From IMG/VR virus record IMGVR_UViG_3300050196_000085, positions 5,046 to 69,045 of that record: a stretch of DNA of 64,000 nt. One strand, 5' to 3'. The translations under genes and the position numbers were made by a program. Each line of letters starts with the position of its first letter. The stretch's first letter is position 1. This DNA is from a virus. Of this stretch, positions 3,374 through 8,453 are shown in pieces. The notes beneath the pieces are model-generated. The model saw nothing but the letters and a program-made list of their open reading frames with translations. It did not search any database and was not told where the DNA came from.

Positions 3374-3432
3374 GACAGGTGCCTATCTCTTTCTTGCAAG
3401 AAGAGGTGTTCCGAAGAACACCTTGACTTAGC

Positions 3433-3912
3433 TCAATAGCCTGCTGCTAACAAGGCCACCCTCATGAGAGTGGTATTGTCGAGTGAACCGGTACGAGCTT
3501 CAGCAGCCTTTGTTTTATCACCATTGTCGGTGAAGACCTTAGCAAGCACTCTGCGAGCTTCCAGAATTTCAGGCTTCACAGCCAAGTCTGGGTGCTCTTT
3601 AATGGCGGCATCTTTCCAAGCGATTAGGTCAGCAATTTGCTCTTGGAGCTGTTTAACCTGAAGGTTCAACTTGGTTTCTGGCTTCATTTGCATCTTTGGT
3701 GGAACGATGGGTTTACCATCACCTATGTAAATCTTATGATCTTTACGCTTGAGCACACCTTTCTTGATCTGCTCAGAAATTGGTGATGTGAGTGAATTCA
3801 TCTTGATGCCGGTGAATTCACTGATTTCTCGGGGAGTTAGTCCGGGAAATTCCCGGACCGTCTCTAGTATTCTTGTGATGTTTGACATCGGCTTTGCCTC
3901 AGCTAAGGGCAT
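3433..3912 (-). CDS. Putative winged-helix DNA-binding protein
   Basis: ILETVREFPGLTPREISEFTGIKMNSLTSPISEQIKKGVL HTH pattern. Start moved to the ATG at 3912 behind a GAGGAG RBS. Confidence 0.6.
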   Translation of the reverse strand: MPLAEAKPMSNITRILETVREFPGLTPREISEFTGIKMNSLTSPISEQIKKGVLKRKDHKIYIGDGKPIVPPKMQMKPETKLNLQVKQLQEQIADLIAWKDAAIKEHPDLAVKPEILEARRVLAKVFTDNGDKTKAAEARTGSLDNTTLMRVALLAAGY

Positions 3913-5134
3913 ATTCAGTCTCCTCAATGTCCTGCCACATTTCTAGGTCCAGCTTACCGATCTGCACGGTACGGCCAATGATCTGAGAGATTAGGTAGCT
4001 CAGCAAATCACTCTTAGCGATCAGCATCAGTTGGCGTGCATATTGGATACGTAGATCGTTGGCGTAGTTTGGATGGCAACGGAAGCAGTCATGCACACTC
4101 AAGACCTTGAATGGTTTCTCAGGCAGGCTTTCCAGTAGTTCCCAGATGACAGCAGGATCGACATGTCCCAGATTATCAGCGTTCAGTGCGTTGATGATCC
4201 GAGCCGAGAGATACCCGCAGTTCTTGTAATGCTCCCAAAGGACTACAACGAGCTTATCGTCGTTGGTCTTGGTTCCGTGTCCATACACAGGCACAGGTGC
4301 CTCAACAGCAAGAAGGTCATATAGCTTGTTGACCTTCTCGGTGTTGTAGTCGCAGCGTTCACCCATTTCACGGCAGATCATGCCATCAATGGAGTGAGTA
4401 GCGTTTGCACCAAGGCTACGACCTTCTTTCATTGGTCGATTAACTTTATGGAACACCTCGAATGGCTGGTTTAGGAAGTGTACGGTTTCTTTGATGGAAT
4501 CCATGACCTTGATCTTCACATGGAAGTTGTCGGGCAATACCCAGTCGTGGCTCAAAGCTTTAGAATCCCAAAACGAAAGCATTGCTTCGTTGAGTTCCCA
4601 AGCTCCGGGTGCAGCCTCGGTCATGGTATCGTAGAACAGATCCAGCAAAGCTCCTTCACCGAACACTTGACGCGGTACAGCACGGCTGGAATACAGACTT
4701 GTCATTATGGCCTGCTTCACATCGTCACGCTTAATTTTGCTTTCTTCACCAAGCTCATCGAGCATCATGTTGTAGATGACTGTGTAGCCGTCTTGACGCT
4801 GTACCACACTGTCATCATGAAACCGGAATGGCACGACGTTGCACAGTTCAGCAGATTGACGGCAGCCGGTTAGAGCAGCCAGAAGCTGCAATCCTGAGGA
4901 TGTGGCATCCAACGAGATCATGTAGCCTGAGGGCTTGCCTGCGAGTGCATCGTTATAAGCTTTGCAGCCTGCGTAGAACATTGCAGGTTCTTTGGCCTGT
5001 GGGATCAGCTCAGCGATGTTACCATCTTTGATGCTGTCGAACCAAGCAATACGCTCATCCCAAGTGAGCTTGTCTAGCCCATACGAATTGGCGATGTCGA
5101 TCTTGAGGTACTGAATCGGAGAAAAGCGTTGCAT
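3899..5134 (-). CDS. RNA polymerase II subunit 2 (N4 gp16-like, T7-type catalytic half)
   Basis: SLDATSSGLQLL (motif A), RDDVKQAIMTSLYSS (motif B), VLSVHDCF (motif C). Confidence 0.95.
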   Translation of the reverse strand: MQRFSPIQYLKIDIANSYGLDKLTWDERIAWFDSIKDGNIAELIPQAKEPAMFYAGCKAYNDALAGKPSGYMISLDATSSGLQLLAALTGCRQSAELCNVVPFRFHDDSVVQRQDGYTVIYNMMLDELGEESKIKRDDVKQAIMTSLYSSRAVPRQVFGEGALLDLFYDTMTEAAPGAWELNEAMLSFWDSKALSHDWVLPDNFHVKIKVMDSIKETVHFLNQPFEVFHKVNRPMKEGRSLGANATHSIDGMICREMGERCDYNTEKVNKLYDLLAVEAPVPVYGHGTKTNDDKLVVVLWEHYKNCGYLSARIINALNADNLGHVDPAVIWELLESLPEKPFKVLSVHDCFRCHPNYANDLRIQYARQLMLIAKSDLLSYLISQIIGRTVQIGKLDLEMWQDIEETEYALS

Positions 5135-5635
5135 CTATTGCGTCCTTCGTTTTCTTCGGTTGTTGGCTTGCTCTTTACGAGTGGCCCATCGGCAATTACC
5201 CGGATGGTAATCACCGTCATTGTTTATTCTTTCTATGGTGAGATCTGCTTGGTATCCATTTGATTTTGCCCAACCAGCAAATGTCTCATATGTCAGCCAT
5301 TGTTGACATACTTTGATCCCACGACCACCATAGTAATCGTATTTATCGCTATTGGGATTATTGCATCTGCTCAGCATGTTACACCACGTTTTATATAAAC
5401 GTGTACCGTGCTCACCATGAGATCTAGCACGATCCCCGGTGACTTGTTTTCGAACACATCCGCAGGATGTAGTTAATCCTCTTCTAAGAGAGTTCACTAC
5501 AATATCCTGTATGTTCCCGCATGAGCAGCGTGTTGGAGCAAACCTGATAGATCTACCTGAGTAGCGTTTACTGAAAGTTGGCCCCGTTACAGTCAACTCA
5601 CCAAATTGCATTCCATTCACGTCAATTGCTTTCAT
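5135..5635 (-). CDS. Free-standing HNH homing endonuclease
   Basis: [59 protein letters not shown]; the gene is AT-rich. Confidence 0.9.
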
Positions 5636-5669
5636 CACCGACTCCTTTGTTATCGGTGTAAGCTATAAT

Positions 5670-5702
5670 TTATAGTATTGCAAGTGCGGTGAACTTTTGC
5701 AT
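5670..5702 (-). pseudogene. Orphaned original 5' end of the RNAP2 gene
   Basis: GGAG RBS, then ATG CAA AAG TTC ACC GCA CTT (G) CAA TAC TAT AAA = MQKFTAL/QYYK, against RNAP2 MQRFSPIQYLK. Confidence 0.6.
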
Positions 5703-5735
5703 GATCTCTGCTCCTAGCGTCTTGAGATTGTTGGA

Positions 5736-6114: not shown

Positions 6115-6306
6115 TCATGGTCCTACCCTATTGGTTCTGATCTCGTATGCGAGATTGCTGATCCTTCTGCGAAGAGCATCAGCTTCACGCTTTTGATCTT
6201 CATGGACGGTTGGTGAAGAGCAAATGTCTTCCATGGCTCGACTGGCCATAGCCAGCTTGCCTTGAAGTCCATTATGTCTCCAGATGAGCATTCGTTTGAG
6301 GCTCAT
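6115..6306 (-). CDS. Hypothetical protein (63 aa)
   Basis: ORF track; GAGG RBS. Confidence 0.7.
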   Translation of the reverse strand: MSLKRMLIWRHNGLQGKLAMASRAMEDICSSPTVHEDQKREADALRRRISNLAYEIRTNRVGP

Positions 6307-6338
6307 ACCTCGATCACTTCTGGTTCTGCCAACTCAAG
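6303..6338 (-). pseudogene. Orphaned original 3' end of the RNAP1 gene
   Basis: CTT GAG TTG GCA GAA CCA GAA GTG ATC GAG GTA TGA = LELAEPEVIEV*, against the RNAP1 end IQLADEEIISME*. Confidence 0.6.
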
Positions 6339-6975
6339 AAAGTGTGTGTGGTAACCCATTTTGGCGGATATAATCATTTCGAGCATCTCTTGCTTGTTCT
6401 GGAGTATCATGAACCCCAAGATGGGTTCTGACATCATAAGAGCAAATACTTGCTGCCCAGCGTTTTCCAACAGCATATACACCTATGTATGGTGCTTTAG
6501 AGTTGATGCGCTTCTTTTTATTTGCCGCTTGGACATTTAAGTTTGCCCAATAGCAATTACTGGGTTCGTAATTGCCTGTAACATCATGACGCTCAATTGT
6601 CAGATCGTGGGAATATCCATTCTGAACTGCCCAAAAGGCAAATCCATCATAGTAAGTCCACTCTTTACAAACACTAATTCCCAGACCACCATAATATTGG
6701 TAGTCTGGTCTATTAGGTTTCGAGCACCTAGCGTGCATATTAGACCAAATTTGAAATAATCTGGTCCTACTTGCCCCGTGTATTGTGTTCACATCTCGTG
6801 CGTAACACCCACATGATAGTGTAGCCCCTCGTTTGAGGTTCTGCCAAAGTGCTGTGATAATTTTACCACAATCACATTCGCACTCTATAGCACGCTTTTC
6901 ACCTTGACGGGGCATCTCACGTAAGAGGGTTAAACGCCCTAGCTTAGTCCCAAAGGGGATAATGTCTTTTGCCAT
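6334..6975 (-). CDS. Free-standing HNH homing endonuclease with a C-terminal AP2-like DNA-binding domain
   Basis: LGRLTL..CECDCG..SCGC..TRLFQIWSNMHARC..YYGGLGISVC..LTIERHDVTGNYEPSNCYWA. AP2-like tail YIGVYAVGKRWAASI..HLGVHDTPEQARDARN. Confidence 0.9.
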   Translation of the reverse strand: MAKDIIPFGTKLGRLTLLREMPRQGEKRAIECECDCGKIITALWQNLKRGATLSCGCYARDVNTIHGASRTRLFQIWSNMHARCSKPNRPDYQYYGGLGISVCKEWTYYDGFAFWAVQNGYSHDLTIERHDVTGNYEPSNCYWANLNVQAANKKKRINSKAPYIGVYAVGKRWAASICSYDVRTHLGVHDTPEQARDARNDYIRQNGLPHTLS

Positions 6976-6979
6976 ATGC

Positions 6980-7801
6980 CTACTCCATAGAGATTATCTC
7001 TTCATCTGCAAGCTGTATCACCGCCTTGTTCCAAGGTGCTCCCTGATAGTTGACGTGGTAGCCCTGACAGTAAATTCGACCACGCTTGTCATACTTATGG
7101 GTCAGGTAAAACTGATTCCCATGTTCAGTGAGCGTGTCGATTACGTCATGGCAGGTGCGATCATACTTCTCGAAAGCACGCTTACGCTTCTCGAAGTCTT
7201 CCTTGGACTCACCCTCTTTGGGTCGGTCGAGATTACGCCAAGAGTTCTTGATCATCAGAGCAGTGTCACGATTGATCGTTAGCTTGATTTTGTTCTGCCT
7301 GTTAATGTGACCAAGGCACACATCATCGCTGTGATGATTCTTCTTGAGTATCACTGAGCCACGATTCATGACGTAGCCAGTGTCCCGGTTGGTCTTCACT
7401 TCCCTTGGTTCTATGACCATAGGCAGAGGAAACTGGAAGCGATCCAGCTCAGCTTGCACATCATCACTGATAGTGATGGCTACGACCAAACGCTCTTGGA
7501 TAGGATCCCAATGAGCAAGGTCGAGCACACACATCTTGTGAATCAGATCTGCTGCTTCCTGAGCAGTTGCAGTGTAGTTCCTTAACAGACCTACAATGAC
7601 GGTGAATTTGGCCCTTTTGTGGAGAGCCATCTGAACCAGAAAGGCGAATCCAAAGTCCAGTGGAATACCGTTGACCTCAAACAACTCAGAGAAGTTGAGT
7701 TCCTTACAGCCAGTGAATTCAGCCTTGATTCGGGGAATGAGCTGATTCTTGTTGTACAAGTTCTCAAGCTCAATCTGTTTCGTCATAAGCGCATCTTGCA
7801 T
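6980..7801 (-). CDS. RNA polymerase II subunit 1 (N4 gp15-like)
   Basis: FQFPLPMVIEP, FYLTHKYDKRGRIYCQGYHVNYQG (DxRGR motif). Confidence 0.95.
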   Translation of the reverse strand: MQDALMTKQIELENLYNKNQLIPRIKAEFTGCKELNFSELFEVNGIPLDFGFAFLVQMALHKRAKFTVIVGLLRNYTATAQEAADLIHKMCVLDLAHWDPIQERLVVAITISDDVQAELDRFQFPLPMVIEPREVKTNRDTGYVMNRGSVILKKNHHSDDVCLGHINRQNKIKLTINRDTALMIKNSWRNLDRPKEGESKEDFEKRKRAFEKYDRTCHDVIDTLTEHGNQFYLTHKYDKRGRIYCQGYHVNYQGAPWNKAVIQLADEEIISME

Positions 7802-7815
7802 CTGCTTACTCCTTG

Positions 7816-8220
7816 TTATGGAAACCAGTAGTCGTCCTCTGGATAATAATCCAAGTCATCATCCAATTCATGTTCTTTCCAGAACATCTCTTCCATGAGT
7901 TCTGCTAATTCATCCTCATGTTCTGGATCCATTGGCTCATCGTCATACCAATTTTCATCGATCCACTGCTCAAGCAGTTCTCGCTGCCATTCAGCATCTT
8001 CATACAGCTCATAAGCTATTTGAAGCTTGGCAGCAGCTCGTTGCTGTCGAGCAGTATAACGCTGATACCAACGAGAGCTGCCTACCCAGCTTTCATCCCA
8101 GCGATTGAGAATCGCATTACCGTGATGGTCTATGCTCATGCTCATGAAATGGATGCTAGGATAGCGTTGACGACTGGCTTTGCGCTGCCATTTCGGATTG
8201 GCTCTCCGAGTCCAGCCCAT
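7816..8220 (-). CDS. Hypothetical protein, basic N-terminus and very acidic C-terminus
   Basis: ORF track; coupled to the upstream stop codon. Confidence 0.7.
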   Translation of the reverse strand: MGWTRRANPKWQRKASRQRYPSIHFMSMSIDHHGNAILNRWDESWVGSSRWYQRYTARQQRAAAKLQIAYELYEDAEWQRELLEQWIDENWYDDEPMDPEHEDELAELMEEMFWKEHELDDDLDYYPEDDYWFP

Positions 8221-8453
8221 TAGAGTTCTTCAGTGATCATGGTGATCTTGAAGAGCTTGGTGGGTGCAACCTTGTCACCATGCCTGCTGACATGTTCTTT
8301 CCACCATTCGTCAGCACGCTCTGAAGTGTCGAATGCAGCTACGACACGTCCACGGCTGGTACGAAGCTGATACTCCGTCTTGGTCTCGATCTGACGAGTG
8401 TTGATCGGCTCACCATGAGCCTGAGCGGTGATGAGTTCTTCATTGGGGTGCAT
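8220..8453 (-). CDS. Hypothetical protein
   Basis: ORF track; GGAGG RBS. Confidence 0.75.
   Translation of the reverse strand: MHPNEELITAQAHGEPINTRQIETKTEYQLRTSRGRVVAAFDTSERADEWWKEHVSRHGDKVAPTKLFKITMITEEL

What the first reader, a model, noticed from the sequence alone, without database searches (positions are those of the whole stretch)
6303..6995. Mirror-image event: HNH-AP2 gene inserted into the 3' end of RNAP1, old C-terminus stranded downstream
Seen in sequence: overlapping the HNH stop, in another frame, is LELAEPEVIEV* (6338-6303), whose TGA overlaps the ATG of the next gene as a native operon junction would. The live RNAP1 ends IQLADEEIISME*, just before the HNH start. Inference: the element supplied a new RNAP1 C-terminus. 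Two related HNHs thus appear to have colonised the two facing ends of the split RNAP II genes by the same strategy.
Basis: partly seen in the sequence, partly recalled or inferred. Interest (0 to 1): 0.7.

Follow-up and report, generated by a model that had tools for sequence, protein, structure and literature searches.

The report
Endonuclease cassette swapped polymerase gene tail
A selfish endonuclease gene landed in the last 11 codons of an N4-like phage's RNA polymerase gene, brought a substitute ending with it and left the original ending as a fossil downstream; this trick is known from fungal mitochondria and here recurs in phages.

Summary
Observation and interpretation both hold. On the minus strand, RNAP1 (7801..6980) ends in a tail that is not its own. 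Four bases later starts a 213-aa HNH-like/AP2 gene (6975..6334). Overlapping its stop lies an unexpressed copy of the native RNAP1 ending (6337..6303).

That stranded 10-mer is 10/10 identical to the RNAP1 C-terminus of the closest relatives, which lack the endonuclease (L028, 99% identical RNAP1 body; L029). It ranks first of 2925 stop-terminated peptides in the window.

Informative sites put the mosaic at 7019..~6338 (682 bp). The flanks follow the HNH-less relative. The insert follows a phage (L032) whose RNAP1 body is only 63% identical but whose HNH is 92% and live tail 11/11 identical.

Five more metagenomic N4-like lineages carry the same HNH family at this codon, each with a recognisable stranded tail. 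One further lineage carries the gene there with no visible stranded tail. A second endonuclease family (Pfam HNH_3+AP2) did the same thing in the L032 backbone. The mirror event at the RNAP2 5' end is also real.

The architecture matches the "mobile ORF gene hybrids" of fungal mitochondria, so this is a new member of a known kind. Nuclease activity, cut site and homing are inferred, and the canonical HNH histidine is absent.

The parts
7020..7801 (-). Recipient-derived body of RNAP1 (N4 gp15 homolog), codons 1 to about 261
   Evidence: 95-100% nt identity to HNH-less relative L028. Informative sites are L028-like down to 7020. PHROG phrog_2166, E 4e-98.
6980..7019 (-). Cassette-borne live RNAP1 tail (…IQLADEEIISME plus stop). 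Its last codons ATG-GAG contain the GGAG Shine-Dalgarno of the endonuclease gene, 7 nt before its ATG.
   Evidence: The switch from L028-like to L032-like sites lies between 7022 and 7019. The tail is identical in aa to L032 and 10/11 to L002. The SD is read from the sequence.
6334..6975 (-). HNH-like/AP2 putative homing endonuclease gene (213 aa): N-terminal Cys4 module, helical module, beta-beta-alpha core (aa 125-152), AP2-like domain (aa ~157-210)
   Evidence: phrog_374 'HNH endonuclease', E 1e-54. Model pLDDT 84. AP2 fold matches at Z 5.8-6.3; PacI at Z 5.7. dN/dS 0.055 against L032. No Pfam or PDB sequence hit.
6303..6337 (-). Stranded native RNAP1 C-terminus (ELAEPEVIEV plus stop). It supplies the TGA of the endonuclease gene and keeps the ATGA overlap with the next gene.
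   Evidence: 10/10 aa to P0001 and P0004. 92% nt to L028 6785-6822. Rank 1 of 2925.
6115..6306 (-). 63-aa downstream gene whose ATG overlaps the stop of the stranded tail
   Evidence: 95% identical to L028 6998-7186. In L028 a further 61-aa gene sits between RNAP1 and this gene.
5670..5714 (-). Mirror relic: old RBS (GGAG) and first codons of RNAP2 (MQKFTAL…), stranded upstream of the second endonuclease gene
   Evidence: Identical to the L028 RNAP2 start region for more than 75 nt, then broken.
5135..5638 (-). Second HNH-like gene (167 aa, no AP2 domain), inserted about 7 codons into RNAP2
   Evidence: phrog_374, E 9e-57. 43% identical to the first. Absent from L028.
3899..5134 (-). RNAP2 (N4 gp16 homolog) with a cassette-borne new start (MQRFSPIQ…)
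   Evidence: phrog_2051, E 3e-154; Pfam RNA_pol. Alignment to L028 resumes at 5115.

Best explanation
A free-standing homing-endonuclease cassette of 682 bp sits inside the 3' end of RNAP1. It consists of a replacement RNAP1 tail of 12 codons plus stop, a 4-nt spacer and an HNH-like/AP2 gene. It lies between the Val and Ile codons, 11 codons before the native stop. RNAP1 stays intact because it now reads into the cassette's own tail, which keeps the family pattern (Q/E-L-A-acidic-x-E-hydrophobic...). The native tail is pushed out of the reading frame, 680 nt downstream, and survives as a fossil.

Shown: the native identity of the stranded tail; the exact mosaic breakpoints; horizontal co-transfer of tail and endonuclease gene between phages with only 63% identical RNAP1; purifying selection on the endonuclease; and recurrence at the same codon in five further lineages with a stranded tail, plus one with the gene but no visible tail.

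Inferred: the protein cuts or nicks endonuclease-less RNAP1 alleles in the highly conserved stretch encoding ...YQGAPWNKAVI, next to the insertion point. The break is repaired from a cassette-bearing co-infecting genome. The left crossover falls in that conserved stretch, and the right end is captured through the native tail, which matches the donor's stranded tail. The recoded live tail keeps carrier genomes from being re-cut and from deleting the cassette by direct-repeat recombination; the two tails share no run longer than about 5 nt.
For: - **Native tail.** Closest relative L028 (RNAP1 body 99% aa) and L029 lack the gene and end in exactly the stranded peptide.
- **Breakpoints.** In a three-way alignment the window is L028-like at nearly all informative sites to 7020, L032-like from 7019 to ~6338, then L028-like again.
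- **Co-transfer.** Window against L032: RNAP1 body 63%, HNH 92%, live tail 11/11 aa and 38/39 nt.
- **Recurrence.** The five closest HNH homologs and L002 all lie directly after RNAP1. Five of these six lineages have a lineage-specific stranded tail starting at the same codon. In L002 it is read in frame as the HNH C-terminus.
- **Native origin elsewhere.** L048 is 98% identical to L032 upstream but carries a Pfam HNH_3+AP2 gene instead, with a shorter remnant of the same tail. This shows the stranded tail is native there too, and that a second family uses the same strategy.
- **Specificity.** A motif scan finds stranded tails only in occupied loci: none genuine among the scanned loci that lack the gene, apart from one spurious regex match in L014.
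- **Selection.** HNH dN/dS is 0.055.
- **Assembly.** Both junctions are bridged by contigs from other runs.
- **Precedent.** The same architecture with a demonstrated endonuclease is described for Allomyces atp6 and Glomus mitochondrial genes (PMC3630166).
Against: No nuclease activity, cut site or homing has been shown. Pfam HNH models do not match even at E=10. No PDB sequence match was found. The only nuclease fold hit is PacI at Z 5.7, below the level the tool calls reliable. The position where HNH enzymes, from general knowledge, carry the general-base His is an invariant Arg in this family.

The same right junction in lineages whose HNH genes are only 50-64% identical is not explained by simple illegitimate end-joining. 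It needs either the homology-arm model or very precise cutting. L041 shows no stranded tail. L002 shares the window's live tail although its HNH is only 55% identical, so tail and endonuclease histories are partly uncoupled.
Confidence: 0.87

Rival explanations
1. In-situ tandem duplication of the RNAP1 3' end, divergence of the two copies, and later insertion of an endonuclease gene between them. Nothing was imported with the gene.
For: The two tails are homologous in pattern. Short 3' duplications do occur.
Against: The live tail is 38/39 nt identical to that of L032 and 34/39 to L002, phages whose RNAP1 bodies are 63-65% identical to the window's. The flank switches abruptly to L028-like at 7020. 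Local divergence cannot produce a tail shared with distant lineages that carry the same gene.
Confidence: 0.03
2. The cassette is ancestral to the window/L028 clade, and L028-type genomes lost it by precise deletion that restored the old tail.
For: Presence/absence alone does not give direction. Endonuclease genes are often lost.
Against: Recombination between the two diverged tails would give a chimeric tail. L028, L029 and at least five further relatives (80-97% RNAP1 identity) all have the pure AEPE-type tail and, where context is known, no endonuclease gene. The cassette's closest copy sits in a 63%-identical backbone, which argues for import.
Confidence: 0.05
3. The gene is a domesticated or inactive DNA-binding protein (AP2 plus a degenerate HNH). 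Its spread is by ordinary recombination of a hot spot, not by endonuclease-driven homing.
For: No canonical HNH His and no Pfam HNH hit. Strong purifying selection fits any functional protein. The 5' part of the cassette is more conserved than the rest.
Against: The fixed insertion codon across lineages with 50-64% identical genes, the sharp breakpoints next to the most conserved target stretch, and the parallel behaviour of bona fide Pfam HNH_3+AP2 genes at the same site are the signature of site-specific homing. Related atypical HNH+AP2 genes are treated as homing endonucleases in ICP1 (PMC10448857).
Confidence: 0.08

Closest known systems
Mobile-ORF 'gene hybrids' of fungal mitochondria (Allomyces macrogynus atp6; Glomus atp6, atp9, cox2, nad3; Rhizopus atp9; Mortierella cox2), as described in PMC3630166
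   Same: An endonuclease ORF is inserted in the 3' part of an essential gene. A foreign C-terminus carried by the element continues the host gene in frame. The native C-terminus is left downstream and is much closer to relatives than the inserted one.
   Different: Here the host is a dsDNA phage, not an organelle. The endonuclease is an atypical HNH+AP2 protein, not LAGLIDADG or GIY-YIG, and is a separate cistron with its SD inside the imported tail. The replaced piece is only 11 codons. A mirror version at a 5' end sits in the same genome.
Free-standing homing endonucleases of T4-like phages (intronless homing; SegB, mobE and others; PMC2330249, PMC2790892, PMC2988022, listed; abstracts only read)
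   Same: A free-standing endonuclease gene lies beside a conserved essential gene. Spread is by break repair with transfer of flanking donor sequence.
   Different: As far as I recall, those elements sit between genes and convert flanks by homologous replacement. They are not described as leaving a duplicated, stranded gene terminus.
IPA-HNH homing endonuclease genes of Vibrio phage ICP1 and other phages (Barth et al. 2023, PMC10448857)
   Same: An HNH-related domain too divergent for the Pfam HNH_3 profile plus a C-terminal AP2 domain, placed beside essential genes. There is a local match to ICP1 gp59 (39% over 51 aa, pairwise E 1e-8).
   Different: Similarity covers only the helical module. 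That paper does not report stranded gene termini or Schitoviridae RNAP genes in the passages searched.
Escherichia phage vB_Eco_Jura (an N4 relative) with an HNH gene between RNAP1 and RNAP2
   Same: An endonuclease gene lies directly after RNAP1, and the RNAP1 tail differs from N4 although the gene is 96% identical overall.
   Different: It has canonical HNH and AP2-like motifs by eye (Pfam was not run on it). The native tail was replaced, not stranded: no second copy is present.
Aeromonas phage Aeh1 nrdA split by a homing endonuclease (cited in PMC10448857)
   Same: Endonuclease insertion inside an essential gene without loss of function.
   Different: There the gene is cut into two working pieces. 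Here the gene stays whole and only its last codons are swapped.

Membership tests
Free-standing homing endonuclease gene (intronless homing) | Presence/absence polymorphism at one fixed site among close relatives | tested here: met
   L028 (99% RNAP1 body) and L029 lack it. Six other lineages carry the family at the same codon.
Free-standing homing endonuclease gene (intronless homing) | Donor-derived flank with sharp mosaic breakpoints next to a conserved target in an essential gene | tested here: met
   Informative-site switch at 7022/7019 and at ~6338. The imported tail is shared with L032.
Free-standing homing endonuclease gene (intronless homing) | Intact gene under purifying selection | tested here: met
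   Full length; dN/dS 0.055 against L032.
Free-standing homing endonuclease gene (intronless homing) | Protein cleaves or nicks the element-free allele and is inherited above Mendelian expectation | not testable with these tools
   Needs enzyme assays and phage crosses.
HNH (beta-beta-alpha-metal) nuclease superfamily | Significant match to an HNH profile | tested here: inconclusive
   PHROG families annotated HNH, E 1e-54. Pfam gives nothing even at E=10. No PDB sequence hit.
HNH (beta-beta-alpha-metal) nuclease superfamily | beta-beta-alpha fold similar to solved HNH nucleases | tested here: inconclusive
   The model has strands 125-129 and 141-145 plus helix 146-152. PacI matches at Z 5.7, rmsd 4.3, 95 aa, below the reliable range. 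Foldseek gives no nuclease hit.
HNH (beta-beta-alpha-metal) nuclease superfamily | General-base His at the end of the first strand, plus Asn, plus His or Asn | tested here: inconclusive
   Invariant residues are R129, N140 and N152, preceded by D/E128. There is no invariant His. Correspondence to the HNH motif was judged by eye, not by alignment to a solved enzyme.
AP2 DNA-binding domain | Three-stranded sheet packed on a helix, similar to plant AP2/ERF domains | tested here: met
   Residues ~157-210: TEM1 AP2 (Foldseek probability 1.0, rmsd ~3 A, 56 columns, 23% identity); ERF1 at Z 5.8; WRINKLED1 at Z 6.3.
AP2 DNA-binding domain | Pfam PF00847 above threshold | tested here: not met
   No hit for this protein. 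A 40%-identical relative, P0133, carries a precomputed PF00847 hit.
IPA-HNH homing endonucleases (PMC10448857) | Atypical HNH domain missed by Pfam HNH_3 plus a C-terminal AP2 domain; sequence relationship to ICP1 gp59, gp115-116 or gp209 | tested here: inconclusive
   The architecture fits. Only a local match to gp59 was found, E 1e-8 over 51 aa. The authors' custom profile is not available.
Mobile-ORF gene hybrid (Allomyces atp6 type) | Endonuclease ORF in the 3' part of a host gene, preceded by an in-frame foreign C-terminus | tested here: met
Mobile-ORF gene hybrid (Allomyces atp6 type) | Native C-terminus retained downstream and closer to relatives than the inserted one | tested here: met
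   Stranded tail: best match 10/10 to any of the 120 relatives' tails. Live tail: best match 5/10.

The most novel reading that the evidence does not exclude
The imported tail and the stranded tail may be working parts of the mobile element. The recoded tail would be the immunity determinant. The stranded native tail would be a portable right-hand homology arm that lets the cassette home into phages whose downstream genes are unrelated. By extension, the split point of the N4-type RNA polymerase II would be a permanent landing pad for several endonuclease families, and the RNAP1/RNAP2 split itself could be the product of an ancient insertion of this kind. The split corresponds to a short linker in an unsplit homolog, P0141.
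Probability: 0.15. Interest if true: 0.8.

Novelty: new member of a known kind. Interest (0 to 1): 0.55.

Why it matters
It shows, with breakpoints resolved to about 3 nt, how a selfish endonuclease gene can settle inside an essential phage gene without an intron or intein: it carries a spare gene ending.

The same solution recurs at this codon in several N4-like lineages. It is used by two endonuclease families, and it is mirrored at the facing 5' end of the partner gene. The RNAP1/RNAP2 junction of Schitoviridae is therefore a hot spot of endonuclease turnover.

Practical consequences:
- RNAP1 and RNAP2 termini are chimeric, so they should be trimmed before phylogeny.
- Short "orphan" ORFs after such genes can be fossils.
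- The start of the stranded tail gives a precise prediction for the cut site of an uncharacterised, histidine-less HNH-like family.

Tried and rejected
- Megablast of the region against GenBank phages found nothing. The nearest cultured relatives have RNAP1 below 60% identity.
- Pfam, PDB sequence search and Foldseek gave no nuclease assignment.
- A degenerate DNA pattern for the live tail found only the L002 contig in IMG/VR.
- Laying contigs of four leaf-litter runs showed no joined, cassette-free form. These are contigs only, so this says nothing about absence.
- A search for longer, fused RNAP1 forms gave a single distant 588-aa protein.
Identity to nearest-backbone relatives and informative-site mapping were used instead.
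- Rejected: chance resemblance; in-situ duplication and cassette loss in L028 (see rivals).
- Rejected: the 59-aa ORF 6482..6303 as a real gene. In L032 the same frame is closed by stops just upstream of the tail.
- The interruption of RNAP2 in L001 was considered as a live example of endonuclease-driven gene fission. It more likely is a group I intron.

Full report
**1. What is at the coordinates.**
All genes here are on the minus strand.
- RNAP1, the N4 gp15 homolog (PHROG phrog_2166, E 4e-98), runs 7801..6980 and ends ...IQLADEEIISME.
- Four bases later an ATG at 6975 opens a 213-aa ORF that stops at 6336..6334 (phrog_374 "HNH endonuclease", E 1e-54).
- Overlapping that stop in another frame, 6338..6303 reads L-ELAEPEVIEV-stop. 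Its TGA overlaps the ATG of a 63-aa gene (6306..6115).
- Two more small genes follow, then a second HNH-like gene (5638..5135) and RNAP2 (5134..3899; phrog_2051, Pfam RNA_pol).

**2. The stranded peptide is the native RNAP1 ending.**
A protein search returned 1212 RNAP1 homologs.
- The closest, P0001 (97% overall, 99% over the body), ends ...NKAVI-ELAEPEVIEV. That is 10/10 with the stranded peptide, as is P0004.
- Their contigs (L028, L029) have no endonuclease gene after RNAP1.
- Against the last ten residues of 120 homologs, the stranded peptide scores 47 and ranks first of 2925 stop-terminated 10-mers in all six frames. The live tail is second with 26, and 2000 shuffles of the peptide reach at most 36.
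- At DNA level 6337..6300 matches L028 6785-6822 at 92%.

**3. Breakpoints and origin of the insert.**
- blastn against L028 gives three collinear blocks: 8300..6992, 6337..6300 and onward, and 5115..3400. Both HNH genes are missing from L028.
- In a three-way alignment with L028 and L032, the window agrees with L028 at almost every informative site down to 7020. It agrees with L032 from 7019 to about 6338, then with L028 again.
- The left junction lies within 3 nt (…GCGGT|G…).
- The insert of 682 bp consists of the live tail, a 4-nt spacer and the endonuclease gene up to its penultimate codon. The stop codon of that gene is made from the first bases of the native Ile-Glu codons.
- L032 has an RNAP1 body only 63% identical to the window's. 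Its HNH is 92% identical and its live tail 11/11 aa and 38/39 nt identical.

Tail and endonuclease gene thus moved together between distant phages. The last two codons of the imported tail (ATG GAG) contain the GGAG that serves as Shine-Dalgarno for the endonuclease gene, seven bases before its ATG. The same holds in L032, and with GGAA in L002.

**4. Recurrence.**
- The five closest homologs of the endonuclease in a 5.8-billion-protein collection (51-92% identity) all lie directly after RNAP1 in N4-like contigs. So does a 53%-identical copy in IMG/VR contig L002.
- Five of these six further lineages show a stranded, lineage-specific RNAP1 tail beginning at the same codon, right at the stop of the endonuclease gene.
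- In L002 the stranded tail is read in frame as the C-terminus of the endonuclease.
- L041 shows none.
- A regular-expression scan of the RNAP1-RNAP2 interval in 46 loci found full stranded tails only in occupied loci. Among the loci lacking the gene it found one spurious match and none genuine.

**5. A second family does the same.**
L048 is 98% identical to L032 upstream of the site. After RNAP1 it carries a different gene with Pfam HNH_3 and AP2 hits, a different live tail, and a shorter remnant (…EPELIEL-stop) that is base-for-base the 3' part of L032's stranded tail. This shows three things:
- The stranded tail in that backbone is native.
- Two endonuclease families invaded it independently.
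- Each family brought its own tail.

L050 has yet another HNH_3+AP2 gene after RNAP1. In the cultured E. coli phage Jura, an HNH gene with canonical HNH and AP2-like motifs (by eye; Pfam was not run on it) sits between RNAP1 and RNAP2. The RNAP1 tail differs from N4, but no stranded copy remains. Pectobacterium phages Possum and phiA41 carry the phrog_374 type between RNAP1 and RNAP2.

**6. Mirror event.**
Upstream of the second HNH-like gene, the window keeps the old GGAG and the first seven RNAP2 codons. This stretch is identical to L028 for more than 75 nt and then breaks. A new RNAP2 start follows the HNH stop directly, and identity to L028 resumes a few codons in. The two endonucleases are 43% identical.

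**7. What the protein is.**
- The AlphaFold model is confident (pLDDT 84).
- Residues ~157-210 match plant AP2/ERF domains.
- Residues 125-152 form a beta-beta-alpha unit. The only nuclease match is PacI at Z 5.7, which is weak.
- Pfam and PDB sequence searches are blank.
- In an alignment of 23 relatives the invariant residues of the core are R129, N140 and N152, with D/E at 128. No histidine is invariant.
- Barth et al. (PMC10448857) describe "IPA-HNH" homing endonucleases with just this profile: an HNH too divergent for Pfam plus a C-terminal AP2 domain. ICP1 gp59 matches the helical module locally.
- The gene is under strong purifying selection (dN/dS 0.055).

It is therefore a functional protein of a family treated as homing endonucleases, but its chemistry is untested.

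**8. Mechanism.**
Shown: import of a tail-plus-endonuclease cassette into a fixed codon, with the native tail left behind.

Inferred:
- The enzyme cuts or nicks cassette-free RNAP1 next to the insertion point. That point follows the most conserved 40 nt of the gene.
- Repair copies the cassette from a co-infecting carrier.
- The left crossover falls in the conserved block. The right end is captured through the native tail, which is homologous to the donor's stranded tail.
- The recoded live tail prevents re-cutting and deletion by repeat recombination.

The homology-arm idea would explain why the right junction is the same in lineages whose endonucleases are only 50-64% identical. It is unproven.

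One oddity remains. The live tail is more conserved at nucleotide level than synonymous sites of the adjacent gene: 1 difference against about 5 expected from the pS (my own rough estimate). L002 also shares the tail although its endonuclease is only 55% identical. This points to nucleotide-level constraint or to partly separate histories.

**9. Comparison with the known, and novelty.**
The architecture is that of the mobile-ORF gene hybrids of fungal mitochondria. There a foreign C-terminus arrives with an endonuclease ORF, and the native C-terminus stays downstream and matches relatives better (PMC3630166). Free-standing endonuclease genes beside essential phage genes are also well known. 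Three full-text searches found no description of stranded gene termini in phages or of this site in Schitoviridae. That is weak evidence of absence. I rate it a new member of a known kind: clean, recurrent and experimentally tractable.

**10. Robustness.**
Contigs from other leaf-litter metagenome runs bridge the left junction (6776-7165) and the right junction (6125-6352) with no differences. These runs may belong to one campaign.

Noticed in passing
window 6303-6309 versus L028 6816-7001: The closest relative has an extra 61-aa gene between RNAP1 and the 63-aa gene. The window lacks it. Both ends of the difference lie exactly at ATGA stop/start overlaps, so a whole gene was gained or lost in phase.
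   Followed up: partly
L001 6005-6835 (also L016 and L017 at the same RNAP2 codon 143/144): RNAP2 of relatives is interrupted by about 0.8 kb holding a 202-aa Cys-rich ORF. Rfam gives a full-length but sub-threshold group I intron match (22.7 bits, E 0.002), so this is probably an intron with its own endonuclease.
   Followed up: partly
L032 versus L048 (RNAP1 3' end): Two contigs 98% identical upstream carry different endonuclease families at the same site, each with its own live tail and a remnant of the same native tail. This is rapid turnover at one landing pad.
   Followed up: yes
P0141 (588 aa, Logan contig of 2.5 kb): A distant unsplit homolog in which the RNAP1-like part runs straight into the RNAP2-like part. 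The residues swapped by the two cassettes correspond to the short linker at the split point.
   Followed up: partly
window 6980-7019 versus L032 and L002: The imported tail is 38/39 nt identical to L032 and 34/39 to L002, more conserved than synonymous sites of the adjacent endonuclease gene (dS about 1 against L032). Reason unknown.
   Followed up: partly
window 6520-6603 (aa 125-152 of the endonuclease): The family's core has an invariant Arg where HNH enzymes are expected to have the general-base His. If active, the chemistry may differ from textbook HNH.
   Followed up: partly
L046 (Escherichia phage Jura) 3741-4352 versus N4: A cultured N4 relative has an HNH gene with AP2-like motifs between RNAP1 and RNAP2 and a changed RNAP1 tail, but no stranded copy. 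This makes a usable experimental pair with N4.
   Followed up: partly
window 6303-6482, minus strand: The 59-aa ORF listed here is an artefact of the stranded tail being open upstream. The frame is closed in L032.
   Followed up: yes
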